From the IMG/VR virus record IMGVR_UViG_2843860951_000002, positions 16,041 to 80,040 of that record: a DNA stretch of 64,000 nucleotides; one strand, 5' to 3'. A model generated the notes under the pieces. It was not told the origin of the DNA and made no database searches. It saw nothing but the letters and a program-made list of their open reading frames with translations. Below, piece after piece: positions 15,349 through 28,892 of the stretch (within the stretch, counting starts at the first letter, position 1; the number at the start of each line of letters is the position of its first letter). A program made the position numbers and the translations under genes. This DNA comes from a virus.

Positions 15349-15356
15349 TTCCGTGA
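15344..15356. repeat. Satellite att site, integrase side
   Basis: ACACCTTCCGTGA vs ACACATTCCGTGA at 28880-28892; identical core TTCCGTGA at 15349-15356. Confidence 0.88.
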
Positions 15357-15375
15357 GGGTGTTGTATCCTATATA

Positions 15376-15388
15376 AATCAATAACTTA
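15376..15388 (+). promoter_or_regulatory. IHF-consensus site in the left att arm
   Basis: AATCAATAACTTA matches WATCAANNNNTTR exactly; inverted copy at 28842-28854. Confidence 0.75.
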
Positions 15389-15415
15389 TGTATAAATGTC
15401 GCGGATTTGTTGCAC

Positions 15416-16621
15416 TCAGTCAGTCTCCGGCAGCATCAATGATGCAATCTTTTGTATTTCCGCTTGTTGCTTGTGCTCCGTAAGTAGTGGGTGAGCATAA
15501 CGCTGAAGGGTCATATCAAAAGATGCATGCCCTAGTAATTTAGCTACATCTGTAACTGGCATTCCTCCACCAACCATAGCACTGGCAGCAAAATGCCTTA
15601 GGGCATGGAAATGATAACTAGGTCCTTTTTTCTCGGTCTCTAATCCAGCCCTGATTAAAAGATTACGCCATACTTCATGCATGTCAGCACGTGTGATCCC
15701 TTTGCTTCCTGTTTTGTCATGCATTTTGGAACGTTGCGTCTTGCAGAACAGCAAATTTCGATTATCTGGGATTAGGTGATGATCTAACCAATCAGTAAAT
15801 AACGCGCGTACATGTTGTGGCATTGGCACATCTCTAAATCCGGCGCGAGTTTTGGGGCCCTTTAGTTCATTCAGCGAAGTAAGAGAGTTTCTGATGCGTA
15901 AAATTCCATTCTGTAAATCAACATTTTGAACAGTAATCCCTGATATCTCACCAAATCTGAGTCCACAAAACACAGCGGAATGCACAAAAATCCGTAATTT
16001 CAGCCATGAACGAATAGACACATTTGGCTGCCGTATATCTACTGTCTTTATAAGCTGTTGTATTTGTTCAATAGAAAAAGTCGCGATCTTGTCAGATTCA
16101 CCGCCACGCCAATCTTTCAGCACTGCATCGAAGGGCTGCCCTTTGGCATAACCTCGTTTGATACCGAACTCGCAAACTTGCCTAGCCGTATTTAAGACTT
16201 CGCGTATCGTAACTTTTTTATATCCAGCTTTTGCCATTTTTCTTGCAATGGCATCACCTTCGTTAAAACCTAGATCTTTTTGCAAAATATCGCCGACTAC
16301 GGGGAGTATATGATTACGAATATACCCCTCACGTCCACGTCTATACAGTTCGCCAACACCGTGCCCTGCCTGTGAGCGAAGAATTGCATCGTCTATGAAT
16401 TCTTGAGCAACTCGCTCCATAGTGGCACTTTTCTTATCTGAAACATGCCGCCCCTCTAAAACATCGACCACAATAGACGATCGAAAGAGATCAGCTTCCT
16501 TCTTGAGTTTGAACGATTTTTGCGTTCTATTCCCCATCTCATCGGTATAATCCACTACCCATGCACTACGATTTTTTCCGCCCGTAACCCAATTACGCTT
16601 TCTAACTGATGCTCGTGCCAC
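15416..16621 (-). CDS. int: Tyrosine integrase of the satellite
   Basis: N-terminal arm-binding region; catalytic set GLRFGE, PKT, HALRH, LLGH, QRY present. Confidence 0.95.
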   Translation of the reverse strand: MARASVRKRNWVTGGKNRSAWVVDYTDEMGNRTQKSFKLKKEADLFRSSIVVDVLEGRHVSDKKSATMERVAQEFIDDAILRSQAGHGVGELYRRGREGYIRNHILPVVGDILQKDLGFNEGDAIARKMAKAGYKKVTIREVLNTARQVCEFGIKRGYAKGQPFDAVLKDWRGGESDKIATFSIEQIQQLIKTVDIRQPNVSIRSWLKLRIFVHSAVFCGLRFGEISGITVQNVDLQNGILRIRNSLTSLNELKGPKTRAGFRDVPMPQHVRALFTDWLDHHLIPDNRNLLFCKTQRSKMHDKTGSKGITRADMHEVWRNLLIRAGLETEKKGPSYHFHALRHFAASAMVGGGMPVTDVAKLLGHASFDMTLQRYAHPLLTEHKQQAEIQKIASLMLPETD

Positions 16622-16626
16622 AACTT

Positions 16627-16920
16627 TTATCCTATCCTATTCATTGAATGCTGCCCCTGAGGAACTGCGTTAGACAGTTCCTCATCTATCGACGCACATC
16701 GGCGTTCCATTTCACCGGATAGCCATTCCAGAGCCATGCCCACAGCACTCATGTTGGGGCCGCTTTCTTCCGAACCAGTAAGCATGCCATTGCTCATGGC
16801 CTGAAGGCATATCCCGATGCAGGACAATTCGCTGGTTGCGTCCTGAATGACGCTCAGTCGGTCGGGTGTTGCCACGGGGCTTTTGCGCCGTTGTGGTGCA
16901 GAAGTGTGTTTCTGGCTCAT
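16627..16920 (-). CDS. Small helical-hairpin protein (paralog 4)
   Basis: ALEWLSGEMERRCASI motif; coupled ORF chain upstream of int. Confidence 0.6.
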   Translation of the reverse strand: MSQKHTSAPQRRKSPVATPDRLSVIQDATSELSCIGICLQAMSNGMLTGSEESGPNMSAVGMALEWLSGEMERRCASIDEELSNAVPQGQHSMNRIG

Positions 16921-17177
16921 GCCTTTACCCCTGTAAGTGCCAGAACATCCCTCGCCAGACTGGCTTCCATACTTCTGTCATCTTCGGACACAAGAAGAAC
17001 CAGACGGGCCTTACATTGCATATCCTTGATGTTCCGGGCTTTGGTGTTCGCAACAGCGCGACAGGCCTTCACGAAGCGACGGCTTTCCGTTTCTCCTTCC
17101 TTGAAATTATGAGCTTTCCAGCTACGGCGATCAGAATTGATGGCGGCGACCGTGGCGGCTTGTATTGGAGTGGTCAT
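16917..17177 (-). CDS. Small hypothetical protein
   Basis: Start MTTPIQ, overlapping neighbours at both ends. Confidence 0.6.
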   Translation of the reverse strand: MTTPIQAATVAAINSDRRSWKAHNFKEGETESRRFVKACRAVANTKARNIKDMQCKARLVLLVSEDDRSMEASLARDVLALTGVKA

Positions 17178-17440
17178 GCCACTTCCTCCGGCAACATCCA
17201 GCCTGGCGCATCTTTCACGCCTGTATGCGCTGCCAGCAGATCCAGATGATCCTGCAACCGGTGGCTCAACCAATGGAGCGCTTCGGGTTCGGTGATGTCG
17301 CATTCATCACAGCTCCATCCGGCTGTCACTTCCACTATAATGGCGGCCATCATCCGTGCGTCACGCAAAATGCAGCTTTGGATACGCATGTTTTTGAAGG
17401 TTTCCTGTTCGAAACCTGTGAGAGACATCTGGTTGCTCAT
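17174..17440 (-). CDS. Small helical-hairpin protein (paralog 3)
   Basis: ALHWLSHRLQDHLDLL motif. Confidence 0.6.
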   Translation of the reverse strand: MSNQMSLTGFEQETFKNMRIQSCILRDARMMAAIIVEVTAGWSCDECDITEPEALHWLSHRLQDHLDLLAAHTGVKDAPGWMLPEEVA

Positions 17441-17676
17441 TTCTGCGGCCTCCACGTCTCGCCGCCAGTAACTTCCTGCAGACGACTTAGCGTTGAGCAG
17501 AGTTCATCTGCCAGCCAGTGCCGGACTTCGGGAAAGACCACTTCATTTTCTGGATGGCTCAAGTCATGGATAGCGCGTGCAATTTGCTCGGCCTTATGAA
17601 GCAAAAGGTGCGGTTTCTTATAGTTGGCAAGATGATCGCGTTCGGCCTCTGTCATGGCTGTAGGTGTGTTGCTCAT
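17437..17676 (-). CDS. Small helical-hairpin protein (paralog 2)
   Basis: VRHWLADELCSTLSRL motif. Confidence 0.6.
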   Translation of the reverse strand: MSNTPTAMTEAERDHLANYKKPHLLLHKAEQIARAIHDLSHPENEVVFPEVRHWLADELCSTLSRLQEVTGGETWRPQK

Positions 17677-17882
17677 TATCGGGCACCTCGCGCCTTAAGG
17701 TCTTCCAGAATGGCGCCATCAAGTTCGTGGTGCAGACGCTCCACCCATTTGTGCAGCCATTCTAATGGCGGACGCTCTCCGCAAGCTTGTAAGCCATCCA
17801 ACACGTCAGACAGGCCCGCCAGCTCACACATGACGCTATGAGCTTTATGATTGAGAGAATTATCCGTTGGCATCTTGCTCAT
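17676..17882 (-). CDS. Small helical-hairpin protein (paralog 1)
   Basis: PLEWLHKWVERLHHEL motif. Confidence 0.6.
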   Translation of the reverse strand: MSKMPTDNSLNHKAHSVMCELAGLSDVLDGLQACGERPPLEWLHKWVERLHHELDGAILEDLKARGAR

Positions 17883-18058
17883 CGTACAGCCTCCAGCTTC
17901 TGGGCTGCGTGGCCAGTTACGACAGGATCAGGCATTGCTGCCCATATCAGGGCTAGCACAGCAAGAACTGGGAAAATCAAAGGTGGTAAATTTCCCCACA
18001 CAGGGGAAAAAATGAATGTACAGGCGCGAACCCGTACGCTATGGGCGTGTTTAGCCAT
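17879..18058 (-). CDS. 59-aa single-TM protein, missing from the ORF track
   Basis: MAKHAHSVRVRACTFIFSPVWGNLPPLIFPVLAVLALIWAAMPDPVVTGHAAQKLEAVR; GAGG RBS; ATGA overlap with 17882. Confidence 0.55.
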   Translation of the reverse strand: MAKHAHSVRVRACTFIFSPVWGNLPPLIFPVLAVLALIWAAMPDPVVTGHAAQKLEAVR

Positions 18059-18140
18059 TAGCTTGTGTCCTCAAGTTTGTGGTCAGGTCTGCTCTGGAAA
18101 TCTCACCTTCCAAAGCAGACCGTTTGGCTTTCCAACCAAA

Positions 18141-18159
18141 GTCAGTTATAAAGACTGAC
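18141..18159. promoter_or_regulatory. Candidate operator of the satellite XRE regulator
   Basis: GTCAGT-N7-ACTGAC inverted repeat in the divergent promoter region. Confidence 0.5.
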
Positions 18160-18186
18160 ATTGTATAAAGTCAAGTGTGAGAACTA

Positions 18187-18426
18187 ATGTCAGACATAAC
18201 ATCTGAGCAATGCCTCGGAGCCCGAGCAATGCTGCGTATGACACGCAATGAATTGGCAGAGGCATCAGAAGTAGCCGTTGCTACATTATCTGACTTTGAA
18301 TCTGGAAAGCGATCACCTCACCCCCGCACCCTTGGCGCCATTCGCTCCGCCTTAGAAGCCGCGGGTATTGAATTCATTACTAAAAATGACAAGGGAGTTG
18401 GATTACTATTGAAGTATAAAAAATAA
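18187..18426 (+). CDS. XRE-family HTH regulator (satellite repressor candidate)
   Basis: Q..GARAML.MTR.ELAEASEVAVATLSDFESGKRSP; divergent from the int-linked operon. Confidence 0.9.
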   Translation: MSDITSEQCLGARAMLRMTRNELAEASEVAVATLSDFESGKRSPHPRTLGAIRSALEAAGIEFITKNDKGVGLLLKYKK

Positions 18427-18530
18427 TACTTGTTTTTAATAAGATATATTCAGAATTTATCTATGGTTATAATTTTAAAACCGTTTTTAATCTCAATTGA
18501 TATAGACACAAAAATTTAGGATGCACTTTT

Positions 18531-19028
18531 ATGAACTTACGTCAGAAAATAAACGCCCAAGCCACACAAAAGGACGCAGAAGAGGCGTTTGAAAATAGTA
18601 GACCGGAAAGAGAACAGGCAATCCGTTCTCAAATGGATTTCTTAATAAAAAAAATTGAATCATTTTTAACTGAATATATTAGAGAAGGGCACGTAAAAAT
18701 AGATTTCTCTACTTCAATTTATAAAATGGATGGCACAGAACATACTGCGATGCCTTCGTTAATAATTAATTTCCCAAAGGAAGAACTTATTCTGGTGTTG
18801 GATAATGAGCACGGTGCTGCCTCATACAGACTCTCTGCAACACTACGCCACCAACCGTTCACGAGAAACCCGCGAAAAGTGAAATTTCTTTTCAAAAACA
18901 ATTCGTGGCTCCTAAACGGAAAGCTTGTTCCTTCTGATGGCGGCTATGCTTTTTTTCAGGACAATCACAACACTGTAGAGATTACCCCAGACAGCCTAAA
19001 TTGCGCTATTGCATCCATTCTAGCGTGA
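18531..19028 (+). CDS. AT-rich hypothetical cargo protein
   Basis: 165 aa, opposite strand to the structural genes, AT-rich. Confidence 0.65.
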   Translation: MNLRQKINAQATQKDAEEAFENSRPEREQAIRSQMDFLIKKIESFLTEYIREGHVKIDFSTSIYKMDGTEHTAMPSLIINFPKEELILVLDNEHGAASYRLSATLRHQPFTRNPRKVKFLFKNNSWLLNGKLVPSDGGYAFFQDNHNTVEITPDSLNCAIASILA

Positions 19029-19076
19029 AAACATAAATATGTGACGAGATTACCTATCTCGTCACATAACCCCAAT

Positions 19077-20420
19077 TTACCGAGCGAGGCTAAAGCGTTT
19101 GCTTGAAACCCAGCGAGCAGGCACAGGCCGGCTTTCAACCATAAGTTCCGTGAGCCCCCAAACCAAAGCGTCCATTCTGTCTGGGGAATTTCCTGATCCA
19201 GGCACCCATTCCACCATTTGATCTTCAAGGGTGGGAAAAGCGCCGACATGATGCACTTTTTCCTGCTCGTATAGTGCCATAATAGGTTCTGCCCTAACGA
19301 GCTTCCCCCGACTGGCATGCACGACTTTTACAGGTACAGTGCCGTCTTCACTGTGAATTGTTGCTGTAACCATCTCGCCGCCGAAATTGTTTTCAGCCAC
19401 AATTTTATCAGCGTTCCAGTGTTTATATGCCCGAACTGCTTGGCGAGCCCACCCGCCAGGGCTGTAACGGCCAGACAAATCCTCCAGAATGTATCCTTTG
19501 TTATCGGTACCGTAGGCGCAGACGATAATGCCAGTTTCATCAGACCTTTCATGAGATGATCCTGCTGGATCTATAGCAATAACGATTCGCCTGAATATCC
19601 GGTCTGATGATGGTTCAACACGAAGCGCATCCAGCATTTCACGAGTCCAGAGAGTTCCGCTTCCATCATCCAGTAATTCACCATCAAGTTCTTGCCTGCC
19701 CAACGTTGTGCCGCCGTATTTTTCCATAAGCTGGGCTAGAGCTGTACGGCTCAAATTCGCTGCATTATCCTGCGTCCGTGAACGTGTCACGACCGTCAAA
19801 TCACTCTTGGCCAGAGAACGAATAAGAGGAATCGGCTTTGGCGTAGTGGAGCACACAATTCTCGGTGCATCTCCCAGAGGACCATCTACGCGGATTGCCA
19901 TACTGAGCACGTCCCAAGCGTACTCACATTTTCCCCACGTTACGATTTCGTCGCACCATGCGCCATCAAGATTCAGGCCGCGTAATCGTTCCGGTTCTTC
20001 TGCTGAACATAGATGGCAAAGGGCTCCGTTTGGATACAACAATTTCCCTGTGGACGGCTCATAAGTAGGCCTGAACTCAGGCGGAGATATCGCCAGCATT
20101 CCACTAGGGCCTTCAATTTGAACACGGCGAAGGGCATTGGCCGTGGGGCCAACGATTGCCATTTCCTTCCGGCGCCCGCTTTCAATCTCACCACGAACCC
20201 ATTCAGCAGCGGTTCTCGTTTTCCCGCTGCCTCGTCCGCCGAGCAAGAGCCAGACAAACCAGTCACCTGCCGGTGGCAACTGGTCTGGACGAGCCCAGAA
20301 AGACCAGACGTAATGAAGCGCAGCCAGTTCTTCGGATGAAAGTGAACTGAGAACAGCACGGCGTTCATCAGGTGGCAGATCTGCCACCCGTGAAGCTAAA
20401 GATATTTTCAGATCGTCCAA
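19077..20420 (-). CDS. terL: Terminase large subunit of the satellite
   Basis: WARPDQLPP..W.VWLLLGGRGSGKT (Walker A), AWCDEI (Walker B), IAIDPA nuclease motif, DRMDALVW. Confidence 0.93.
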   Translation of the reverse strand: MDDLKISLASRVADLPPDERRAVLSSLSSEELAALHYVWSFWARPDQLPPAGDWFVWLLLGGRGSGKTRTAAEWVRGEIESGRRKEMAIVGPTANALRRVQIEGPSGMLAISPPEFRPTYEPSTGKLLYPNGALCHLCSAEEPERLRGLNLDGAWCDEIVTWGKCEYAWDVLSMAIRVDGPLGDAPRIVCSTTPKPIPLIRSLAKSDLTVVTRSRTQDNAANLSRTALAQLMEKYGGTTLGRQELDGELLDDGSGTLWTREMLDALRVEPSSDRIFRRIVIAIDPAGSSHERSDETGIIVCAYGTDNKGYILEDLSGRYSPGGWARQAVRAYKHWNADKIVAENNFGGEMVTATIHSEDGTVPVKVVHASRGKLVRAEPIMALYEQEKVHHVGAFPTLEDQMVEWVPGSGNSPDRMDALVWGLTELMVESRPVPARWVSSKRFSLAR

Positions 20421-20920
20421 GCGTCTCTCCGGCGTTCAATCTCTGCCATGATTTCTTTTTTGCGAGGCATCACTACTCGCCTGTCTTGTTCTGTCAGTTT
20501 GGCTGCTGGAAACAGAATAAGATTTCCAGGGTGAATAACTTCAAACGAAATTCCCTTGGCCATCAGCCTTTCGACTAGATCAGAAATACTTTCATGAGAT
20601 TGCTGCCGTTGGTCAGGGCTTGCATTCGTAAAGGTTGCATTCGCAAATACGATTGCAGCTAATTCGTTCTCAGGAGCATTTCGTACAGAAATAAAGAATA
20701 CTTCTGCTTCTTTCATTTCTTTATCATATTGCTCTTTAGCCATTTTTGCCCGAACAGCATCCCCTGAATGCTGCTCACGATAATAAATTCCCATCCTTTG
20801 CCGGAGAAGATTAAAACGTGGATCCAATACACGAAAGAGGTCGTGTCCACGTGCGCGCGCCTCTTTGTAGGCGATTGCTACCCTATCTTCGATTGAGAGA
20901 TTCGCATTTAGCTGCGTCAT
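20408..20920 (-). CDS. Hypothetical helical protein
   Basis: 170 aa, overlaps both neighbours. Confidence 0.6.
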   Translation of the reverse strand: MTQLNANLSIEDRVAIAYKEARARGHDLFRVLDPRFNLLRQRMGIYYREQHSGDAVRAKMAKEQYDKEMKEAEVFFISVRNAPENELAAIVFANATFTNASPDQRQQSHESISDLVERLMAKGISFEVIHPGNLILFPAAKLTEQDRRVVMPRKKEIMAEIERRRDAWTI

Positions 20921-21192
20921 TTTTTGCTACCCCATTTTTTTGCCCATTTTTGCAAAGACCGCGAATTAATGCTGTCGCGCATATTGCTCTGGATATCAGC
21001 GTTGATGCGCTTCAGTTGTTTTTTGCATTCTTCTTCGGATGCCATGCGTGCGTTGAATGTAAACGCATCTGGATACCTGTCCTGCAAACAAGAAACTGCT
21101 TGTTCAGGAGAGAGATTTTCATCAGCAATTTTTAGTAAAGTCATATCGTTCAGGCCCGCTTTGATAGCGGCCTGCTCTAATTTTGTGCACAT
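20917..21192 (-). CDS. Mini scaffold-like protein (homolog of the helper scaffold C-terminal domain)
   Basis: LEQAAIKAGLND..LLKIAD..AV..LQDRYPDAF-TFNARMASEEE vs helper AKALATKLGAVSPDDVVRLID..VMDAAKESRGYLF..PFNARKATPEE. Confidence 0.6.
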   Translation of the reverse strand: MCTKLEQAAIKAGLNDMTLLKIADENLSPEQAVSCLQDRYPDAFTFNARMASEEECKKQLKRINADIQSNMRDSINSRSLQKWAKKWGSKK

Positions 21193-21255: not shown

Positions 21256-21384
21256 CAATCATCACCAGCCCGGAACACCCGGCACCCGTGGCGTTGAAAG
21301 TGGATCTGGCATAGCATTACTTGCCCGCATTTCGCGGTCATAATCCTTCCTAACCACACTTTGCACATGCCCGGCGATCTGCTT
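21256..21384. repeat. 129-bp perfect direct repeat, copy 2 (3' end of satellite TMP gene)
   Basis: Identical to 4391-4519; similarity extends 9 bp further with two synonymous changes. Confidence 0.97.
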
Positions 21385-23349
21385 GCCGTCTAGATTCACA
21401 GTTACATTTATAGGTGCAGTTCCAAATAACCCTCCTGAGTATTTACCTAAAAACCCATCAATACTTTTTAATGTTTCATTGTTTTTTTCTAAGCTAGCTT
21501 GGAGTTTGTTCGCCCAAGGTGAGAGCACATCCCACGCAGCAAGGCCTGCAGCTAGCGGCATAAATCCTTTAGACGCTCCTTTAGTAACTGTGCCGAATTT
21601 CGACATTCCACTCGGAAGGTATTTTTCAAGAGCGCCACCTACCCAATGGAAGAACCCCACAGCTAAGGCTGTAACGCCTAGATCTACGCCGGCTGTTGCT
21701 AGAGGGGGCACAACATTGGGGTGTTTTTCCGCCTGCCGAGCAGTAAAATTCAGAGTATTGGTTAAAAGTCCCAGTGCGGCCAAACCATCTTTGAAGGGTT
21801 TATCTCCTAAGACAGTTGTGAGGTTTTTAATCGAAGCCGTAAACGCATCAATTTGAACAGACGGAGAATTCTTCATAATACCAACAATATCAGCATGAGA
21901 AAGCTTGCCAGTAGCTGAAGAATCTCGCTCAGCAAGAAGGTAAGTTCGCAGAGTCTCAATCATACTCACGCCTCCTGGAATGCGAGAAGCAACCTGAGAA
22001 AGGCCTTTTGCTTCCATAGCTAATTTCATTTCCGGCGAAGCATCAGTAAATTTTTTCCCATACACCTTAGCCATATATTTATCGATTTTAGGTTTGAGCG
22101 TTTTCTCAATAAATTCATGCGGCGAGAAAATAATCTTAGCCATGTCGTCTGGATCAAGTGCCCCATCCAACATCATGAACTGGCCCATGCCCATTTTCCG
22201 CAAATATTTGTTCGATTTAGCATCACCACCACCATGGATGATTCCCATATCGATCAACATATTTGCTCCTGCCTCTGACATTCTCCCCGCCATAAATTGC
22301 TGAGAAAACCCCTGAAGGCCGGTTCCTGCCCTTGCGGTCCCCATCGACTGAAGTAGTGGAATAAACCATGGCAAATCCTCAGCTTTAAGGGTTGCACCCG
22401 CTGCGCCCGCTGAACGACTAAATTGCAGATATTTCTTGAAATCAACATTTCCCAAAGTGGCAACTTCAGCAGCTAATAACAGAGTACCTAGATTCCGGGC
22501 GCCCTCCACATCCACTTCTTGTTTGCCGGTTTTTTTATCTGTTTTAACTAGAGCTCCACGAAATTCGGCTAGCTGCATAAGGGACTCAAGCTGTGCTGCA
22601 TAATTACCAGACTCAGGATGGTAAGCCCCTGCGGCAATGCCAATTGGTAGGAATGTCGGTAACAAAGTACGAGCTTCAGAAGCACTTTGAGTTATCCGTT
22701 TAAGAACAGAGTATACTTCCAAGTTCCCCATGACATCTGAACCGGCAACTTTCTTTTGAAGGTCCCGAGCCAAAACAATCGCTTTGTCAGCATCCTTAGT
22801 ATCTCCGCCATCATTAGCAATAAGGCGCTGCCGCATTTGCTGAAGATCCATAGCTGGCCTCAAAGCAGTCTTCGCCATATCTCCATACATCTGAAGATCA
22901 AACCCAACTGCCATGGCTTTATTAGCCGCATGTCCAAAGGAGGTCTCTGGCCTCCCAGGGACCCTTCTTCCCTCAGGCTCGGGAGTTAAAGGGGGTTTGG
23001 GCGAAGGGAGAGGAACCTCACTCGGCACCGACACCTTAGGATTTATAATCTGTACTTTCCGCAATTCCTCAAGAGCCTTACGAGCAGAACCCGCAGAAGA
23101 CGTAATATTATCCAGAGACGCCGACATTGTTCTTGTCTGGCTATCAATTCCTCCCAGATTGATACCTTCAATTTCTTTTAACTGCCTGCCAAGGCGAGAA
23201 AGATTGGCACGCCCTAAGGCCTCGAGAAGACTCCTAAGATCATTCCCTGCATCTAATGTCATGCGGAATTGACGCGCGATCTCTTTCAGTAACGCCGGCG
23301 CATTTGAAACAAGTTTATACTCGCCTTGGACTGCATAGCTTGTCGTCAT
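21262..23349 (-). CDS. Tail tape measure protein of the satellite, 695 aa
   Basis: Follows chaperones and a gp10-like gene; N-terminus MTTSYAVQGEYKLV resembles helper MTVEAYKIGVSLV; last 43 aa identical to the helper TMP. Confidence 0.85.
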   Translation of the reverse strand: MTTSYAVQGEYKLVSNAPALLKEIARQFRMTLDAGNDLRSLLEALGRANLSRLGRQLKEIEGINLGGIDSQTRTMSASLDNITSSAGSARKALEELRKVQIINPKVSVPSEVPLPSPKPPLTPEPEGRRVPGRPETSFGHAANKAMAVGFDLQMYGDMAKTALRPAMDLQQMRQRLIANDGGDTKDADKAIVLARDLQKKVAGSDVMGNLEVYSVLKRITQSASEARTLLPTFLPIGIAAGAYHPESGNYAAQLESLMQLAEFRGALVKTDKKTGKQEVDVEGARNLGTLLLAAEVATLGNVDFKKYLQFSRSAGAAGATLKAEDLPWFIPLLQSMGTARAGTGLQGFSQQFMAGRMSEAGANMLIDMGIIHGGGDAKSNKYLRKMGMGQFMMLDGALDPDDMAKIIFSPHEFIEKTLKPKIDKYMAKVYGKKFTDASPEMKLAMEAKGLSQVASRIPGGVSMIETLRTYLLAERDSSATGKLSHADIVGIMKNSPSVQIDAFTASIKNLTTVLGDKPFKDGLAALGLLTNTLNFTARQAEKHPNVVPPLATAGVDLGVTALAVGFFHWVGGALEKYLPSGMSKFGTVTKGASKGFMPLAAGLAAWDVLSPWANKLQASLEKNNETLKSIDGFLGKYSGGLFGTAPINVTVNLDGKQIAGHVQSVVRKDYDREMRASNAMPDPLSTPRVPGVPGW

Positions 23350-23354
23350 TATTG

Positions 23355-23816
23355 TTACTCTTTCAGGCCAGCTATTTCTGTGATTTTTTTTGCAATTTTC
23401 TTTGTAATACTGTGTTCTTTGCGGAATAACGCTGTCGCGATAACTGGACGCGGAGGCTGTTTCATCGTTCCTTCTTCAAACCATTTTGCCACCACATCGG
23501 GATTCCCAATAATCACCTTTGACCCATCTTCAATATAAGATGAATAAAGCGCTCGCATCTCACCTGTTCGCAAGCCCGGTTCATTTTCGGAAAACCCGCG
23601 GGCTAACCTATCCTGTTTGGTACTGATAGCCAGTTCATCCCAAGGGGGAAGGTGACCCATATTTGCCCTTTGGTAGGTACCTACTTCTTCTTTGCAATCA
23701 GCAACAAGCAATATGGCGGCTTTTTCCAAGGCAATCAGTTGCGCTCGTTCTACCACCTCTGGAATTTTTTCCATTTGAGACAAAAAACTTTGTTCACTAA
23801 GCGGATTAGCCGCCAT
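23355..23816 (-). CDS. HK97 gp10-like tail component (satellite copy)
   Basis: ELA.STK..RLARGFSENEPGLRTGEMR, FEEGT.KQPPRP; homologous to 8039-8545; start at MAANP mirrors the helper overlap. Confidence 0.72.
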   Translation of the reverse strand: MAANPLSEQSFLSQMEKIPEVVERAQLIALEKAAILLVADCKEEVGTYQRANMGHLPPWDELAISTKQDRLARGFSENEPGLRTGEMRALYSSYIEDGSKVIIGNPDVVAKWFEEGTMKQPPRPVIATALFRKEHSITKKIAKKITEIAGLKE

Positions 23817-24006
23817 CACTATTGCGCCTATGAAAGCGCCCCTCTCCCAAACTCCATTCGATTTCACCACATGAATCAAGTTCTTTGTTCATAATGCATG
23901 CAGCTGAAATCATCTCGTCTGACCATGTATCAAGAACATGGATGGGGATCCCATTCCGGGCGAGATAAACCAACGCCCGGAAGTTAGGATCCCTTAGGAA
24001 TTTCCC
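23806..24006 (-). CDS. Satellite tail chaperone -1 frameshift extension, missing from the ORF track
   Basis: Slippery G GGA AAT (24000-24006); -1 frame GKFLRDPNFRALVYLARNGIPIHVLDTWSDEMISAACIMNKELDSCGEIEW..DGG* is homologous to the helper extension. Confidence 0.8.
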   Translation of the reverse strand, partial: GKFLRDPNFRALVYLARNGIPIHVLDTWSDEMISAACIMNKELDSCGEIEWSLGEGRFHRRNSDGG

Positions 24007-24425
24007 AGCTTTTCTTCTGGAGCCTCCTGCGTCTTGGCTTGACCTCCGGCTATATCTTCAACAAGCGCTCGCATGTAGGCTTGCTGTCCTATATTCCCGA
24101 TCTTATCCAAAAGATCGCAAATTTCACTTTTGCTCTCTGGGGTCATTTCAGGCTCGCCATCAAGGTCAACAACTGAAACCGCCATCATGACTGCAAAGCT
24201 CACATCGTCATTCTGGATGTTACCCCACATGTCTAAGGCCCTCACCCGTAAACTTAACGGGATAGATTTAAGGAATTGGATCTCCCTTCCTTTTTTATCC
24301 TCTTCAAATTTAACCGTAATACAAGAAGGTTTTTTTCCTCCAATTTTATACTTTGCAGGCCCTTCTTCCCACGAAAAGCCAGCGATTTTAGGGAGTTTAT
24401 CTTTGGAGGTCTTTTCTTTTGTCAT
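23994..24425 (-). CDS. Tail assembly chaperone (satellite copy)
   Basis: MMAVSVVDLDGEPEMTPESKSEICDLLDKIGNIG vs helper MVCSVTAIDGVPVQMPITKDEVKELANDIGNDG. Confidence 0.78.
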   Translation of the reverse strand: MTKEKTSKDKLPKIAGFSWEEGPAKYKIGGKKPSCITVKFEEDKKGREIQFLKSIPLSLRVRALDMWGNIQNDDVSFAVMMAVSVVDLDGEPEMTPESKSEICDLLDKIGNIGQQAYMRALVEDIAGGQAKTQEAPEEKLGNS

Positions 24426-24666: not shown

Positions 24667-25095
24667 TTAAAAACTAACTTTTGCATCTGTTCGTTCAGGC
24701 GGATCTAGTAAATCCGCATAACAAAAAGTGCCCGGCAATATGGTGAAGGGGCCGCCAACATACGTGATTCCTTCTCCGCCTTTCAGGTCTGTTAAGTAGG
24801 CGACCTGCCCAGGGGGAATTGTCTTATTCCCTGTGCCAGTTTCAAAGCCATTTACTGGTGGAGATAGCTGAAGCTGCGGCGCTTCTGGATTTCCGGGGGT
24901 GTAAAATAGTGTCAGATTACCTTTACCACCATTACGGATTGCCATGACTGCGGCATCCTGTAGCTGATCAGGTACCGTGATAGTAGCTGTCCCGCAGATG
25001 GGAGCAGCGGGCACAGCCATCGCGCCACTTACGCCGCCTGGTGCATCTGGATAAGCACTTGGATTTTGTGATGTCGTGATAAACAATCTTTTCAT
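24667..25095 (-). CDS. Hypothetical Pro/Gly-rich, beta-rich protein
   Basis: Start MKRLF with AAGGA RBS; no family recognised. Confidence 0.6.
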   Translation of the reverse strand: MKRLFITTSQNPSAYPDAPGGVSGAMAVPAAPICGTATITVPDQLQDAAVMAIRNGGKGNLTLFYTPGNPEAPQLQLSPPVNGFETGTGNKTIPPGQVAYLTDLKGGEGITYVGGPFTILPGTFCYADLLDPPERTDAKVSF

Positions 25096-25106
25096 ATCGT
25101 TTCCTT

Positions 25107-25769
25107 TTATTCGCTGGACAAAACTCCAGATACCGCTTTGGCTGTCCACTTCCCTCCACGGGGAGTGCGGACAGATCGCTGGTCAAGTTCGTTCGCGATA
25201 GTTTGCAAACTCATTCCTTGGCCGCGCAATTCCTTGATCAGAGGGCGAACAGAAGCCCGGAACTCTTCTTTTTTCCGTCTCACAGCTGCTGTGCCGGCTT
25301 TCTGATCCACTTTTGGGCCGCCTCTATAACCACCTAGCTTAACGCCACGTGCCTTGGCAGCAGCCAACGCCTCTTTCGTGCGCTGGGATATGGCTTCCCG
25401 TTCTTGTTGGGCCACAAGCGCCATAATCCCTATAGTCATCTGATTGGCGCCGGGCATATCTGCGGCGACGAAATTGATGCCTGCGTCTTTTAAGCCGATA
25501 AGGAATGCAGCGTTACGAGAAAGCCGGTCGATTTTGGCTATGACAAGCGTTGCACCTGTCAGACGACATTCTTTCATGGCCAATTCTAATTGAGGACGGG
25601 CATCATTCTTCCCAGTTTCAATTTCAGTGAATTCGGCCAGCAATTCCCAATCACCGCCATTTAGGAAATTTCGGACAGTGTGCTGCTGTGCCTCTATTCC
25701 AAGACCAGATTTTCCTTGTTTTTCAGTGCTTACGCGGTAGTAGGCGACAAATTTTCCGTTCATGTTCAA
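25107..25769 (-). CDS. Serine recombinase (resolvase/invertase family)
   Basis: FVAYYRVSTEKQ, DRLSR, ERE.IS.RTK.AL..AKARG, C-terminal helical DNA-binding region. Confidence 0.93.
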   Translation of the reverse strand: MNMNGKFVAYYRVSTEKQGKSGLGIEAQQHTVRNFLNGGDWELLAEFTEIETGKNDARPQLELAMKECRLTGATLVIAKIDRLSRNAAFLIGLKDAGINFVAADMPGANQMTIGIMALVAQQEREAISQRTKEALAAAKARGVKLGGYRGGPKVDQKAGTAAVRRKKEEFRASVRPLIKELRGQGMSLQTIANELDQRSVRTPRGGKWTAKAVSGVLSSE

Positions 25770-25798
25770 ATCCAGACGACGAAGGTTGTCTGATTTTG

Positions 25799-26227
25799 CT
25801 ACGGACTTTTCTCACTATTTGCAATCGTTTTTTTTGTCTCATTTTCTGGCTCAAGATCAATTACTGGCTTCTGTTGCGGTTTGAATGCTTCCAGCATCTG
25901 ACTGATCTTTTCTACCATGTGTGTACCAGAGACTTCCTGCTGACCATCCTTTGGCGTTGCATCCGCTGTAACCTGCATGGAAAGCCTTGGCCGACAATAT
26001 GGAAGTGCTGCTTGATAAGCTTTCACGCGCAATTCTAAGGGCGTTTCTGGACTGTCAGCAATTTCCAGCAGCGAAAGAAGCGGATCTCGGCCTTCTTCCA
26101 TAATCTGCACCAATGTCTGCCGCGCTTTAACCATAACTTTTTGTGGTCGTTTGCTCTGCCACTCAGCACCTGATTTACGGCCAGCGCCTTTACGCTTTCC
26201 TCCTGAGCCGCTCGAGGTTCCTGGCAT
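25799..26227 (-). CDS. terS: Putative terminase small subunit of the satellite
   Basis: GGKRKGAGRK..., DPL..LLEIA....PLELRVKAYQAALPYCRPRL, a motif I associate with small packaging subunits. Confidence 0.55.
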   Translation of the reverse strand: MPGTSSGSGGKRKGAGRKSGAEWQSKRPQKVMVKARQTLVQIMEEGRDPLLSLLEIADSPETPLELRVKAYQAALPYCRPRLSMQVTADATPKDGQQEVSGTHMVEKISQMLEAFKPQQKPVIDLEPENETKKTIANSEKSP

Positions 26228-26417
26228 TCAATACTCCTATTTCCCCCGATCTTGGGGTTTCACGCACGCGCTGCGCGCAGAAGCCAGAATGCTCCTACGC
26301 CAACGGGCGGGGCAAGCGGGGCTATGCACAGCCTCGCGCCTGATTTGATTATAACGGGGCTGGCAGTTGGCAACGCATGCCCAATTCACCTATGCAGAAT
26401 TCCTAAACACTGGAAAC

Positions 26418-26535
26418 TTTGCACGGAACTGCACGGAACCCGCACGGGTGAGTGATCCGCACGCACGGATCATCTCCCCTATAGGGTTCCGAGATCCATG
26501 CGCGCGCGGATTTGCACGGAACCTGCACAGATCAT
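26418..26535. repeat. Candidate satellite replication origin
   Basis: GCACGG at 26421, 26431, 26442, 26463 and 26514; hairpin TGATCCG-N6-CGGATCA; palindrome CCCTATAGGG; directly after the helicase gene. Confidence 0.6.
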
Positions 26536-27740
26536 TCCTCCCCTCCTCCATCAGTCCAAACTACACAGGAAGGCTTTCCATCGGGGGTTCGTATTCCCTG
26601 AGCAGTACCTCGGTTATCACGCCTAAATGTCGCCACCTCATATCCCTCGTGGAGTAGATCGTTCAGAACCTTCTTCTGCCCATCAGCCGTGCTTACGCCA
26701 CAGTCAGTCAAAAGCTTCCTGATAGACCGTTGATCTTTTGACAATTTAGGGCTCCAAGGGCCTACAGGACTTCCTTTCGCGACCCCTGCTTCAATAAGGT
26801 TCATTTGCTCCAATGAGACGCTATCCTGCGGAGGCATCCATGGCTTCATGACTGCCACTCGGTCACCATTATTTAGTTCGTAAGACTGCCGTTCAAACCA
26901 TTCTTCCTTGCCGATCGGAGCCGCATTGATCTTGGCCCCATCGACGCGAGAGAAGAACCGCCTATGGTCAGCCGGTAACCCAAAGTTTTGTGCTTCTGCT
27001 TCTGACATAACACTAACCGTCAACACTACGCGGGCGGCACCAACAACGGCAGATGCACCTCGGGACACGTCAGGATCTCCTGGAATGGCAGCTACTCCTT
27101 TCCGTGTATGATGCAAGAGAACGACGGCCATATCATACCGCACAGCCAAGGCACGGAAATGAGCCATTACCTTGCGAACTGCAGTATTGTCGTTTTCTTC
27201 TGCTTCATGCAATTCAACCAACGGATCCAGCATCAACACATCGGGCCTGCGCTTTTGGATTTCAGCTTCCATTTGTTTCATTGCCGGAGTGTCAAACATC
27301 TCTTTGCTATCTTTCTCCTGCTCAAGCAACGTTCCGATAGTCTCCGTGCCTACGCGGGCAACATACCCATTCAAATCTGCCGGGCACTTACCCATGAACC
27401 GCAAAGCAGCAGAGAACCGCCGACGCTGTTCGTCACGATCATCCTCAACATTGTAAGTCATGACCTTCATGCGCTTATCTGGGGTCAATCGCCCATAGCT
27501 CTCTCCTAGTGCAAGAGACGCTGCCCATCCCACCATTAGGCTTGACTTCCCCGAAGCAGGTGCACCCACCACAACAGTGACAGCACCACGCAGGAGGATC
27601 CCAGAAGCTACCCAAGGGCGGGAGGGAATATCGTTTTCGTCCCAGTTCTGATCATCTATTACAAGAGGGAGAACAGGCGTATGCTGCTTATTCTGCGCTT
27701 CAATTACGCTTTGGTGGACAATTTCTCCGATTTCATTCAT
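26532..27740 (-). CDS. RepA-like replicative helicase (AAA_25 type)
   Basis: Walker A GAPASGKS, NVED, LMLDPL, LLHHTRKG, SRGASAVVGAAR. Confidence 0.88.
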   Translation of the reverse strand: MNEIGEIVHQSVIEAQNKQHTPVLPLVIDDQNWDENDIPSRPWVASGILLRGAVTVVVGAPASGKSSLMVGWAASLALGESYGRLTPDKRMKVMTYNVEDDRDEQRRRFSAALRFMGKCPADLNGYVARVGTETIGTLLEQEKDSKEMFDTPAMKQMEAEIQKRRPDVLMLDPLVELHEAEENDNTAVRKVMAHFRALAVRYDMAVVLLHHTRKGVAAIPGDPDVSRGASAVVGAARVVLTVSVMSEAEAQNFGLPADHRRFFSRVDGAKINAAPIGKEEWFERQSYELNNGDRVAVMKPWMPPQDSVSLEQMNLIEAGVAKGSPVGPWSPKLSKDQRSIRKLLTDCGVSTADGQKKVLNDLLHEGYEVATFRRDNRGTAQGIRTPDGKPSCVVWTDGGGEE

Positions 27741-28519
27741 CCACCCATCCTTGCCCTCAACGCAGATGCGATGGTCTTTTCAACTTCAGTTGCACTTAGG
27801 CCTGCTTCTAACCCAGCAGCCGCCATGACAACTGCAATTTCATTGGCTGATAGATAACCTTCGGCAATGAACCTTCCTAATGCAAAGGTTTCGGCATTAA
27901 GAGTTTGATTTCTTAACCCATTGCCTGCGGTAGCAACCTGCCGAGCAGCTGAACGAAGAGCAGATTGGACATAGCGATTTGCGTTTTCTATGCCGTGTTG
28001 CAATCTTTCAAGTTTAGGTTTGGGAGGTGGCGAAGGTGTTGCAAGTTCTACTAGCCATGCCGGCCATTGCTGGATGCGAGCACGCTCAACTATCTCTAGC
28101 CCAGCCGCAGGCCACCAAATGATATATCCTCCATCAGCCCTAACATCCACGCCCGGCGCTATCCGGCCGGCACTGTTCCTCATGCCTTCTCGGTGCCTGA
28201 ACAATAAATGAAGCCCCCCAGAACGGGTGCGATTAATCCGGGTGCCGGTCAGTCGGGCGCAGTGTTCTTGGTAAAAATCGTCACCACCCTTTCCCCAGTC
28301 CAGATCAAGTGCATCAAACCCAGACACAGAACCTGTAACTGCTCCAATAAGAGCCCCTGGATGAGCGCGCCAGAGCATGGCAACAGTTTCCGGGCATTTG
28401 CTCGACAATTTAGTCCATTTGCAAGTAGGTCGCTTCTGCTCATCACAGGGGAATACCTGTACCCCGCAGCGCGCTAATTGTTGGGCATAGACCACAACAG
28501 AACCATTTGCCGTAGTCAT
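27737..28519 (-). CDS. Bifunctional primase/polymerase (Prim-Pol) with primase C-terminal region
   Basis: VFPC..KRP, ALDLD, RTRSGGLHLLF, GVDVRADGGYI, GLRNQTLN..F.LGR; start MTTANG by ATGA overlap. Confidence 0.88.
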   Translation of the reverse strand: MTTANGSVVVYAQQLARCGVQVFPCDEQKRPTCKWTKLSSKCPETVAMLWRAHPGALIGAVTGSVSGFDALDLDWGKGGDDFYQEHCARLTGTRINRTRSGGLHLLFRHREGMRNSAGRIAPGVDVRADGGYIIWWPAAGLEIVERARIQQWPAWLVELATPSPPPKPKLERLQHGIENANRYVQSALRSAARQVATAGNGLRNQTLNAETFALGRFIAEGYLSANEIAVVMAAAGLEAGLSATEVEKTIASALRARMGG

Positions 28520-28716
28520 GACTGCCCCGCTTCGCAGTTTTTCAACCACTGGCGCAGCGTTTCAGGTCGCGCACAAATAGTCTTCCCAATACGAAAGCAT
28601 GGGATACGCCCCTGCTCATTCCAATAGGCAACTTGACGAGGAGATGTGCCGAGGAACTCCGCAATCGCTCTCGTCCCTGCTAGAATTTCGACAGAGAAAG
28701 TAACACTATTTTTCAT
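28516..28716 (-). CDS. AlpA/excisionase-like winged-HTH protein
   Basis: G.RAIAEFLG.SPRQV.YW...GRIP.FRIGKTICAR...L.QWL; first gene inside the right att. Confidence 0.8.
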   Translation of the reverse strand: MKNSVTFSVEILAGTRAIAEFLGTSPRQVAYWNEQGRIPCFRIGKTICARPETLRQWLKNCEAGQS

Positions 28717-28841
28717 GTCGCAGTTTGCCTGATATTTGTCGCATGCATGCAGCACGGAAATGCCGTGCATTGTCGTAACTCCTTGGTTTTCATCGTTCTT
28801 ATCGAACAGAGCGAATAGGCAAGAAATCTCACGACATTTTT

Positions 28842-28854
28842 TAAGTTATTGATT
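28842..28854 (-). promoter_or_regulatory. IHF-consensus site in the right att arm
   Basis: TAAGTTATTGATT, reverse complement of 15376-15388. Confidence 0.75.
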
Positions 28855-28879
28855 TTGTTATAATTATTGAAGGATATAA

Positions 28880-28892
28880 ACACATTCCGTGA
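28880..28892. repeat. Satellite att site, xis side
   Basis: ACACATTCCGTGA; core TTCCGTGA at 28885-28892. Confidence 0.88.

What the first reader, a model, noticed from the sequence alone, without database searches (positions are those of the whole stretch)
15349..28892. Candidate new system: a tail-remodelling satellite that sits inside and disables its helper's capsid gene
Seen: a 13,536-bp att-bounded unit with int, xis/AlpA, Prim-Pol, helicase, ori and an XRE regulator, plus its own TerS/TerL, a scaffold-like mini protein, a frameshifting tail chaperone pair, a gp10-like gene and a full tape measure gene. It has no portal, capsid, tube, sheath or lysis gene. Established: PICIs and P4 borrow whole virions, and capsid-forming PICIs make heads and borrow tails. 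Inference: this element borrows the head, tube and sheath but supplies the tail core and packaging motor, and it makes helper capsid production conditional on its own excision. I recall TMP-encoding satellites from Actinobacteria, so a TMP alone may not be new; I know no precedent for the whole combination, but could not search.
Basis: partly seen in the sequence, partly recalled or inferred. Interest (0 to 1): 0.97.

Follow-up and report, generated by a model that had tools for sequence, protein, structure and literature searches.

The report
Satellite embedded in helper capsid gene
A 13.5-kb mobile element sits exactly inside the major capsid gene of an acetic-acid-bacterium prophage and carries its own DNA-packaging motor and tail-ruler genes, whose tips match that prophage's parts; it is very probably a phage satellite, but embedding in the helper and building hybrid tails were both published in 2023-2026.

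Summary
A 13,536-bp element (window 15350-28885) bounded by the 8-bp repeat TTCCGTGA splits the major capsid (MCP) gene of a complete phiKX1-like myovirus prophage. Deleting it in silico restores a 464-aa MCP. A fermentation-metagenome contig carries exactly that empty junction.

The element has a tyrosine integrase, HTH_17/Xis-like protein, PrimPol, AAA_25 helicase, iterons, XRE repressor and TerL with TerS candidates. It also has a frameshifting tail-chaperone pair, a tail-completion-like protein and a 695-aa tape measure (TMP). No portal, capsid, sheath, tube or lysis gene was detected. The "mini-scaffold" claim is not supported.

Diverged copies in Acetobacter ghanensis and in a sequencing-run contig keep the same gene set under purifying selection (dN/dS 0.01-0.12). 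They use a different integrase and a second site about 90 bp away in the same MCP gene. In both helper-element pairs, the element TMP's last 22-45 residues are near-identical to its own helper's, from independent conversions. The element TerL carries the C-terminal tail shared by unrelated TerLs of phiKX-like phages.

Best reading: a helper-embedded satellite that makes hybrid virions. The novelty claim fails: HE-PICIs (2023), PLE chimeric tails (2026) and TMP-encoding EPIPs are precedents. This scan has already found HE-PICIs in E. coli. Verdict: new variant of known kinds.

The parts
14269..15349 (-). Helper major capsid gene, 3' part (codons ~106-464)
   Evidence: PHROG 1357 major head protein, profile 138-356. 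Joins in frame to 28894-29199 once the element is removed.
15350..15357 (.). attL core TTCCGTGA
   Evidence: The empty-site contig in run X9 joins 15348 to 28885 with 8 shared letters.
15416..16621 (-). Tyrosine integrase (401 aa)
   Evidence: PF00589, E 9.5e-28. 42% identical to the integrases of the A. ghanensis and L010 elements, which use another site in the same gene.
16627..17303 (-). Two conserved small genes upstream of int (97 aa and 128 aa); the 97-aa one is a possible Xis
   Evidence: PHROGs 31590 and 36656, function unknown. Conserved in L007 and L010.
18187..19028 (+). Divergent XRE-type repressor (79 aa, HTH_3) plus a 165-aa partner gene
   Evidence: PF01381, E 2.9e-8. These are the only plus-strand genes of the element. 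The HTH_3 gene is conserved in L007 and L010.
19077..20420 (-). Element large terminase (447 aa), with a helper-like C-terminal tail ending ...PARWVSSKRFSLAR
   Evidence: Terminase_6N and Terminase_6C. No other similarity to the helper TerL. The tail motif is shared with three unrelated TerL families of phiKX-like phages and is absent from relatives outside Acetobacteraceae.
20408..20920 (-). 170-aa gene overlapping the terL start; TerS candidate 2
   Evidence: No family hit. Conserved in L007 and L010 with dN/dS 0.08. A similarly placed 171-aa gene lies in L059.
20917..21192 (-).
   Evidence: Conserved in L007 and L010. Similarity to the scaffold is not significant.
21262..23349 (-). Element tape measure protein (695 aa); its 3' end is near-identical in DNA to the helper TMP 3' end
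   Evidence: 50% identical to the TMP in the ordinary tail module of a K. oboediens phiKX-like phage.
23355..23879 (-).
   Evidence: 36% identical to the helper's 172-aa protein. Weak hits to PHROG 26 (E 1.4e-3), Phage_tail_S and HK97-gp10_like in homologs. The structure model was poor.
23806..24425 (-). Tail assembly chaperone pair (143-aa G-like product plus a -1 frameshift extension, GT-like)
   Evidence: G_GGA_AAT lies two codons before the stop, and the -1 frame stays open for 66 codons. It is homologous to the helper's extension.
24667..25095 (-). 142-aa conserved gene, function unknown
   Evidence: Conserved with dN/dS 0.115. No family hit, structure model pLDDT 31, not related to the tube family.
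25107..25769 (-). Small serine recombinase (220 aa), the most conserved gene of the family
   Evidence: Resolvase, E 3e-27. 87% identical to L007 and L010; dN/dS 0.01. It lies between the TerS-like gene and TerL in related islands.
25799..26227 (-). 142-aa TerS candidate 1
   Evidence: PHROG 15261 and a weak hit to TerS PHROG 641. The Atlas places it near DUF5681 viral clusters at 0.95. Its homologs lie directly upstream of TerL in L050, L053, L054 and L057.
26421..26541 (.). Iterons, probable ori
   Evidence: Direct repeats with GCACGGAAC units, just downstream of the helicase gene.
26532..28549 (-). Replication module: AAA_25 helicase (402 aa) and Prim-Pol (270 aa)
   Evidence: PF13481, E 8.6e-36, and PF09250, E 3.3e-19.
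28516..28770 (-). HTH_17 / excisionase-AlpA-like protein (84 aa)
   Evidence: PF12728, E 2.7e-5 (below the curated cut-off), and TIGR01764 'excise', E 1e-3.
28886..28893 (.). attR core TTCCGTGA
28894..29199 (-). Helper major capsid gene, 5' part (codons 1-~105); in the integrated state it reads 7 codons into the element and stops
   Evidence: PHROG 1357, profile 22-124.
4397..6718 (-). Helper tape measure (773 aa), donor or partner of the shared 3' end
   Evidence: 54% identical to the phiKX1 TMP. Its last 48 aa are 94% identical to the element TMP.
29972..33024 (-). Helper portal (505 aa) and helper TerL (511 aa, ending ...PARFVTNKRFSLSR)
   Evidence: PHROGs 145 and 5902/2.

Best explanation
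The element is a helper-embedded phage satellite of a phiKX1-like temperate myovirus in an Acetobacteraceae host, probably Acetobacter.

Shown by the sequence:
- It sits in the helper's major capsid gene, in the same orientation, and breaks that gene. Precise recombination at an 8-bp core restores it.
- It has its own integration, regulation and replication modules.
- It has no detectable head-shell, portal, sheath, tube, baseplate or lysis genes.
- It does have a packaging module: one or two TerS candidates, a serine recombinase and TerL.
- It has a partial tail-assembly pathway: a chaperone pair made by -1 frameshift, a tail-completion-like protein and a TMP.

Inferred life cycle:
1. After induction, helper late transcription from the portal, scaffold and 5' capsid side reads into the element.
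2. Int plus an Xis-like protein excise it, and only then can the helper make capsid protein.
3. The element replicates from its iterons with PrimPol and the helicase.
4. Its TerS/TerL package its DNA into helper procapsids. TerL docks on the helper portal through a C-terminal tail of the type shared by all phiKX-like terminases.
5. Its TMP, held by its own chaperones and capped by its own completion protein, nucleates on the helper baseplate through a C-terminal 22-45 residues copied from the resident helper's TMP. The result is a chimeric contractile tail.
6. Because attB exists only inside the helper genome, the particle must reach cells that carry the helper or are co-infected with it.
For: - Precise insertion, restored MCP frame and a natural empty site.
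- The helper is collinear with inducible phiKX1 from integrase to baseplate (PMC8566455).
- Module content.
- The tail cassette is syntenic with and homologous to the helper's, and to the native tail module of a K. oboediens phage.
- The element TMP 3' end is near-identical to its own helper's TMP in two independent pairs. In the window the last 48 aa are 94% identical and the DNA is 96% identical over 152 bp. In A. ghanensis 66 of 67 nt match. The two pairs carry different tail types, and the protein bodies are only 22-26% identical.
- The TerL C-terminal motif PAR[WFLY]...[RKN][FIW]x[LMFI][GSA]R is shared by the element TerLs and three unrelated TerL families of phiKX-like phages. Their portals are 58-80% identical. 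The motif is absent from relatives outside Acetobacteraceae.
- The same gene set occurs in A. ghanensis and in contigs L010 and L058, with dN/dS of 0.01-0.12.
- Two integrases, 42% identical, hit two sites about 90 bp apart in the same MCP gene.
- Seven other Acetobacteraceae prophages have an intact MCP.
- Precedents for each principle: PMC10111431 and PMC12987554.
Against: - There are no experimental data. No attP circle junction was seen in the four metagenomes laid.
- Both TerS assignments are weak.
- The tail-completion assignment rests on E-values of 1e-3 to 0.08 and a poor model.
- Only two helper-element pairs are available for the TMP covariation, with three tail types. Tail type alone would match by chance about 1 time in 9; the near-identical DNA tracts are the stronger argument.
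- TerL-tail similarity within the A. ghanensis pair is loose.
- TMP length differences go in opposite directions in the two pairs, so the benefit of an own TMP is unexplained.
- Four conserved genes (91, 142, 165 and 170 aa) have no assigned role.
Confidence: 0.75

Rival explanations
1. The element is a decaying remnant of a second, once complete prophage that landed by chance in the capsid gene. Both elements would then be dead.
For: It carries phage-like late genes (TerL, chaperones, TMP) without heads. Its tail cassette is homologous to that of a real phiKX-like phage.
Against: - Three copies diverged to 39-87% aa identity keep the same gene order, with all frames open and dN/dS of 0.01-0.12.
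- Two different integrases target the same gene.
- Independent, recent conversion tracts match each copy's helper.
- The backbone exists as still smaller capsid-less islands.
- The helper is otherwise complete.
Confidence: 0.04
2. The element is an integrative 'lock' that mainly benefits the host or itself by keeping the prophage from making capsids (regulated gene integrity). Its TerL and TMP act as decoys that interfere with helper packaging and tail assembly, not as working parts of its own virions.
For: - The MCP gene is truly interrupted, with no replacement sequence.
- Satellites commonly interfere with helpers.
- Helper-matched ends would also suit competitive inhibitors of portal and baseplate docking.
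- PLE11 combines tail interference with its own TMP (PMC12987554).
Against: - A decoy needs no full-length TMP with its own frameshifting chaperone pair and completion protein, nor a TerL with both ATPase and nuclease domains. All of these are under purifying selection.
- The element has its own replication and TerS-like genes, which points to packaging of its own DNA.
- Interference and use are not exclusive.
Confidence: 0.12
3. The shared TMP 3' end and the TerL tail are neutral by-products of recombination between co-resident homologous phage genes and have no functional meaning.
For: Phage genomes are mosaics. TMP tail types assort independently of body types among ordinary phages too.
Against: - The conversion tracts lie in genes that are only 22-26% identical, with unrelated flanks. 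They end at the stop codon region and occurred twice independently toward each resident helper.
- The TerL tail is kept across four unrelated TerL families that share one portal family.
Confidence: 0.08

Closest known systems
Helper-embedded PICIs (HE-PICIs; Tommasini, Mageeney and Williams 2023, PMC10111431)
   Same: [quoted passage not shown]
- No replacement sequence, so the helper gene works only after satellite excision.
- Related integrases retarget to new sites within late genes.
- A 'late zone' of captured helper late genes.
- Size of 10-20 kb; primase and ori.
   Different: - HE-PICIs are known from Enterobacterales lambdoid (siphovirus) prophages. This element is in Acetobacteraceae, in a contractile-tailed phiKX1-like prophage.
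- Here int lies at the far end from the AlpA/Xis-like gene.
- Bro-N network proteins were not noticed.
- The captured genes are TerL plus a chaperone, completion and TMP cassette, not capsid genes.
- Whether the integrase belongs to the HE-PICI clade was not tested.
Vibrio cholerae PLEs building chimeric tails (Nature 2026, PMC12987554)
   Same: - The satellite encodes its own TMP and tail assembly chaperone, only about 20% identical to the helper's.
- These are built into otherwise helper-derived contractile tails.
- The TMP length differs from the helper's.
   Different: - PLEs parasitise a lytic phage (ICP1) and integrate in the chromosome. They also encode a baseplate hub protein and no TerL.
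- Here there is no hub gene. Instead the TMP's last 22-45 residues are copied from the helper.
- No Rta-like inhibitor was identified.
- Nothing here has been shown experimentally.
Capsid-forming PICIs (cf-PICIs; bioRxiv 10.1101/2022.09.08.507074)
   Same: The satellite has its own TerS and TerL. According to PMC12987554 (Extended Data Fig. 10), some carry putative tmp genes.
   Different: cf-PICIs encode their own capsid, portal, protease and head-tail connectors and borrow only tails. This element has none of those detectable, so it must use helper portals with a foreign TerL.
EPIPs of Mycolicibacterium (bioRxiv 2025, PMC12822802)
   Same: A small satellite with a TMP, and particles whose tails differ from the helper's.
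   Different: EPIPs are in Actinobacteria, with a siphovirus helper and a serine integrase. They carry TerS only, plus head genes, and are not embedded in the helper.

Membership tests
HE-PICI (helper-embedded satellite) | [quoted passage not shown] | tested here: met
   It lies inside the MCP gene of a prophage collinear with phiKX1.
HE-PICI (helper-embedded satellite) | Co-oriented with the interrupted late gene; attP carries no replacement sequence, so the gene is disrupted until excision | tested here: met
   All element genes except two are on the minus strand, like the helper late genes. The 5' fragment stops 7 codons into the element, and the 3' part lacks its first ~105 codons.
HE-PICI (helper-embedded satellite) | Integrase belongs to the single HE-PICI/fis/hpt integrase clade of Enterobacterales PICIs | not tested
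   No HE-PICI integrase sequence was obtained. The integrase here is a 401-aa PF00589 protein.
HE-PICI (helper-embedded satellite) | Four-zone organisation: int-AlpA, Bro zone, replication zone, late zone | tested here: inconclusive
   Replication and late zones are present. The AlpA/Xis-like HTH_17 gene lies at the opposite end from int, and no Bro-N hit was seen in the Pfam scans.
Chimeric-tail satellites (PLE type) | Satellite-encoded TMP and tail assembly chaperone distinct from the helper's | tested here: met
Chimeric-tail satellites (PLE type) | Satellite TMP physically incorporated into helper-derived tails | not testable with these tools
   This needs virion mass spectrometry or Western blot. 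The only indirect evidence is the helper-identical TMP C-termini.
Chimeric-tail satellites (PLE type) | Sequence membership in the PLE family (PLE genes, ICP1 helper) | not tested
   No PLE sequence was compared. Host, helper type and gene order differ, so family membership is not claimed.
cf-PICI | Own capsid, portal, protease and head-tail connector genes in addition to TerS/TerL | tested here: not met
   No such hit for any element ORF in Pfam, PHROGs or NCBIfam. No unassigned ORF is longer than 170 aa.
P4-like satellite | Psu/Sid/Delta/Ash-type genes and an alpha primase-helicase | tested here: not met
   No hit to these families. Replication uses Prim-Pol plus AAA_25.
Phage tape measure protein | Long, largely helical protein encoded directly after a frameshifting chaperone pair in a tail module, homologous to known TMPs | tested here: met
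   Synteny with the helper and with the native tail module of the K. oboediens phage; 26% identity to annotated Burkholderia phage TMPs, E 5e-6; homologous to the helper TMP. No Pfam or PHROG TMP model matched.

The most novel reading that the evidence does not exclude
The element may represent an undescribed and possibly widespread class of capsid-less satellites in Alphaproteobacteria that encode their own TerL. The backbone would be int, primase/helicase, a TerS-like gene, a small serine recombinase and TerL. Such elements would take over helper portals by fitting a foreign packaging motor with the helper's C-terminal docking tail. One sub-lineage would then have captured a chaperone, completion and TMP cassette, tuned its TMP tip to each helper by gene conversion, and moved into the helper's capsid gene. 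On this reading, short swappable C-terminal peptides are the general 'adaptors' by which satellites plug foreign parts into a helper's virion.
Probability: 0.35. Interest if true: 0.75.

Novelty: new variant of a known kind. Interest (0 to 1): 0.6.

Why it matters
- It extends helper-embedded satellites beyond Enterobacterales lambdoid phages, to acetic acid bacteria and a contractile-tailed helper. No paper on satellites of these bacteria turned up in the two literature searches aimed at them.
- It combines three strategies so far described separately: embedding in the helper's capsid gene, an own terminase without an own portal, and a partial tail pathway.
- The natural conversion tracts point to the residues that probably matter. 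These are the last ~22 aa of the TMP for baseplate docking and the last ~15 aa of TerL for portal docking. Both can be tested by simple swaps in laboratory strains.
- The hosts are food-fermentation and insect-gut bacteria, where prophage induction affects process stability.

Tried and rejected
- **Mini-scaffold (91 aa).** BLASTP against the helper scaffold finds nothing. The profile-profile comparison gives probability 1.3% and only an 18-column FNARxAxxEE motif. Rejected as evidence.
- **142-aa gene as a tube protein.** hhalign against the phiKX tube family gives probability 0.2%. The AlphaFold model has pLDDT 31. The Atlas gives only unnamed viral clusters below 0.9.
- **174-aa protein.** The fold came out at pLDDT 55, too poor for a fold search.
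- **170-aa gene.** The Atlas score is 0.84, a lead only. NCBIfam added nothing.
- **Single-protein pattern scan of genome contigs with TerL.** It found no relative. The profile scan found only relatives at 44-48% identity in other phyla.
- **attP circle junction.** Not seen in four metagenome runs, which were contigs only. This is no evidence of absence.
- **A. ghanensis helper apparently lacking a TMP.** This turned out to be a moron block between the completion-like gene and the TMP.
- **Tail-length remodelling as the purpose of the own TMP.** Rejected as a general explanation because the length difference changes sign between the two pairs.
- **Complex prediction.** Not used, because portal-TerL and TMP-hub contacts depend on oligomers beyond the size limit.

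Full report

The window is bases 16041-80040 of an 81-kb IMG/VR provirus record. The octamer TTCCGTGA stands at 15350-15357 and again at 28886-28893, 13,536 bp apart. An 8-bp repeat could be chance, but the surrounding evidence is decisive.
- The minus-strand ORFs on either side match the two halves of one PHROG, 1357 'major head protein': profile positions 22-124 for 28864-29199 and 138-356 for 14269-15381.
- Removing 15350-28885 gives one open frame of 464 codons reading straight through the junction.
- That restored protein aligns over 460 residues, at 91% identity, with the intact MCP of an Acetobacter malorum prophage. It also aligns at 70-79% with six further intact MCPs in Komagataeibacter and Gluconacetobacter genomes.
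- In a fermentation metagenome (run X9) a contig joins 15348 directly to 28885 with 8 shared letters. In runs X1 and X5 contigs span both occupied junctions.
- GC is 0.40-0.54 inside the element and 0.56-0.57 outside.

The boundaries are therefore correct to the base.

**2. The surrounding prophage**

The flanks encode the helper's structural genes:
- TerS at 32969-33451, TerL at 31489-33024, portal at 29972-31489 and scaffold at 29280-29924;
- the split MCP, followed by head-tail genes;
- sheath at 9469-10956 and tube at 9034-9465;
- a chaperone pair, a 172-aa protein, and a 773-aa TMP at 4397-6718.

A tblastx comparison shows the record to be collinear with Komagataeibacter phage phiKX1 (LC644975, 53 kb) from integrase through baseplate. 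phiKX1 came from a survey of mitomycin-C-induced, myovirus-like particles of acetic acid bacteria (PMC8566455). Apart from the interrupted MCP, the helper looks complete.

**3. Gene content of the element (all on the minus strand unless noted)**

Listed from attR towards attL:
- HTH_17 / excisionase-like protein (84 aa)
- Prim-Pol
- AAA_25 helicase
- iterons at 26421-26541
- a 142-aa protein with weak TerS hits
- a 142-aa unknown protein
- the tail chaperone (143 aa) with a -1 extension
- a 174-aa protein
- the 695-aa TMP
- 91-aa and 170-aa unknown proteins
- TerL (Terminase_6N/6C)
- on the plus strand, a 165-aa gene and an HTH_3 repressor
- several small ORFs
- the tyrosine integrase

No ORF matches a portal, capsid, protease, sheath, tube, baseplate or lysis family. 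The longest unassigned ORF is 170 aa.

**4. The tail cassette**

Four consecutive element products are homologous, in the same order, to four helper products:
- chaperone, 26% identical;
- frameshift extension, 37.5%;
- the 174-aa against the 172-aa protein, 36%;
- TMP, 23% over 292 aa.

The element's chaperone ends with ...CTG GGA AAT TCC TAA. G_GGA_AAT is a canonical slippery heptamer, and the -1 frame runs on for 66 codons. The helper uses A_AAA_AAC at the same position, and the two extensions are alike.

The TMP is 50-52% identical to only a handful of database proteins. One of them is the TMP of an ordinary tail module (sheath, tube, chaperone, 159-aa protein, TMP) in a K. oboediens phiKX-like phage. 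It is also 26% identical to annotated Burkholderia phage tape measures.

The 174-aa family gives only weak hits to tail-completion families: PHROG 26, Phage_tail_S and HK97-gp10_like. So 'gp10-like' is plausible but not secure.

**5. Helper-matched ends**

*TMP.* The last 48 residues of the element and helper TMPs are 94% identical. The DNA is 96% identical over 152 bp and reads without a mismatch from about 130 bp before the stop codon to a few bases past it. The identity ends sharply at both edges.

In A. ghanensis a diverged copy of the element has a TMP that ends in a different peptide. That peptide is again the one of its own helper's TMP: 66 of 67 nt are identical, and the bodies are about 25% identical.

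Across nine TMPs, three tail types assort independently of three body types. The tail therefore behaves as an exchangeable module, and both satellites acquired their resident helper's version independently. From general knowledge of tailed-phage assembly (not tested here), the TMP C-terminus sits in the baseplate hub or tail tip, where tube polymerisation starts.

*TerL.* The element TerL (Terminase_6) and the helper TerL (PHROG 5902/2) are unrelated except for their last ~15 residues...PARWVSSKRFSLAR against ...PARFVTNKRFSLSR. The same kind of tail closes two further unrelated TerL families of phiKX-like phages and the TerLs of related elements. It is missing from the closest relatives of the element TerL outside Acetobacteraceae. 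The portals of these phages are 58-80% identical. From general knowledge, the extreme TerL C-terminus mediates prohead or portal docking in lambda and T3/T7. I infer the same here.

**6. It is a family, not an accident**

The same gene order occurs at three further places.
- A. ghanensis GCA_050572975.1 (loci L007, L011, L014). Protein identities to the window range from 39% (170-aa gene) and 52% (TMP) to 72% (TerL), 82% (helicase) and 87% (serine recombinase).
- A 15-kb contig from a sequencing run (L010).
- A near-identical copy, with TerL 98% identical, at the same MCP site in a contig of another sequencing run (L058).

Between L007 and L010, dN/dS is 0.01-0.12 for every gene where dS is measurable, including the unknowns.

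In A. ghanensis and in L010 the insertion is also in the MCP gene but about 90 bp upstream. In A. ghanensis the core is a 19-bp repeat and excision again restores the frame. The integrases there are only 42% identical to the window's. Two integrase lineages aimed at one gene argue that the capsid gene is the selected target.

A profile search of 401 Acetobacteraceae genomes found eight further full-length TerL relatives. In several of them TerL lies in small islands beside primase/helicase genes, a TerS-like gene or a serine recombinase (L050, L053, L057). L051 and L054 also carry a TMP, and L054 an integrase. A metagenome contig shows a minimal island flanked by cellular genes: int, D5 primase, a 132-aa gene, resolvase, TerL and an 86-aa gene. 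The window's element thus looks like this backbone plus a captured tail cassette.

**7. Mechanism**

See Best explanation. The following are shown:
- the interruption and its reversibility in sequence;
- the modules;
- the homologies;
- the matched ends;
- the selection;
- the presence/absence polymorphism.

The following are inferred: induction, excision order, replication, packaging by the element's own TerS/TerL into helper procapsids, and assembly of chimeric tails.

Why an own TMP pays is open. Length differences go both ways: 695 against 773 aa in the window, 686 against 646 aa in A. ghanensis. Two speculative ideas remain. The first is resistance to a factor that targets the helper TMP, as in PLE11. 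The second is bypass of injection-level exclusion in helper lysogens, which are the only cells that hold attB. The conserved serine recombinase may resolve packaged concatemers; this is also speculation.

**8. Comparison with what is known**

- *Embedding in the helper's capsid gene.* Delayed helper late-gene expression and late-gene capture define the HE-PICIs of Enterobacterales (PMC10111431). This scan has met those several times in E. coli.
- *Own TMP and chaperone.* Satellite-encoded TMP and chaperone built into helper-derived contractile tails were demonstrated for PLEs, with putative tmp genes noted in other satellites (PMC12987554). EPIPs of Mycolicibacterium also encode a TMP (PMC12822802).
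- *Own TerL.* This is known from cf-PICIs, which however bring their own portal and capsid.
- *Acetobacteraceae.* I found no paper on satellites in this family.

What is new here is the combination, the host clade and helper type, a foreign TerL used without an own portal, and the recurrent helper-specific conversion of the TMP tip.

**9. Verdict**

The satellite interpretation is well supported by comparative evidence. The claim of a categorically new system is not supported. This is a new variant that joins two or three published principles. Interest is moderate to high because it offers precise, testable docking peptides and hints at a wider class of TerL-bearing satellites.

Noticed in passing
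window 6802-7866 (+); also L014:6339-8616 and L013:7447-8887: The slot between the helper's tail-completion-like gene and its TMP holds a low-GC, opposite-strand 'moron' in the window (354 aa, GC 0.45). It holds toxin-antitoxin pairs in relatives: BrnT/BrnA plus Arc in A. ghanensis, and HicA/HicB in a JGI contig. This looks like a hot spot for cargo inside the tail operon of phiKX-like phages.
   Followed up: partly
JGI metagenome 3300047160 contig (no DNA held): A minimal island of about 7.5 kb lies between cellular genes. It carries a P4-type integrase, a D5 primase-helicase, a 132-aa gene, a 176-aa resolvase, a 441-aa TerL (61% identical to the element's) and an 86-aa gene. It looks like a capsid-less, TMP-less satellite backbone that still encodes a large terminase.
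   Followed up: partly
L054 (G268:C4:865800-885799) and L051 (G395:C1:3436000-3455999): Other Acetobacteraceae genomes hold different small elements that also pair a TerL (55-58% identical) with a TMP. L054 carries int, a DUF7146 primase, a TerS-like gene, TerL, a Phage_cement protein, a completion-like protein and a 687-aa TMP. L051 carries a Toprim primase, an AAA_25 helicase, TerL and a 793-aa TMP. Neither shows a portal or capsid hit among the ORFs scanned.
   Followed up: partly
window 25107-25769 and homologs (L007:7520-8176, L010:3556-4212): The small serine recombinase is the most conserved gene of the family (87% aa identity across copies, dN/dS 0.01). In related islands it keeps a place between the TerS-like gene and TerL. 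This suggests a role tied to packaging or to concatemer resolution rather than to integration.
   Followed up: partly
L013:10338-10400: A 21-codon fragment, 95% identical to the C-terminal tail of the A. ghanensis element's TMP, lies stranded in the moron region of an element-free phiKX-like phage. It is probably a scar of recombination at this exchangeable TMP tip.
   Followed up: no
window 31489-33024 compared with L012:8242-9405 and L027-L031: phiKX-like phages that share one portal family (58-80% identity) use at least three mutually unrelated large terminases. All of them end in the same kind of C-terminal peptide.
   Followed up: partly
window 52000-64000: Beyond the helper's integrase end there is a second run of phage-like minus-strand ORFs, for example 58265-59743 (492 aa). 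A segment at 57914-58190 resembles both phiKX1 and record bases 3049-3303. It may be a neighbouring second prophage or a remnant.
   Followed up: no
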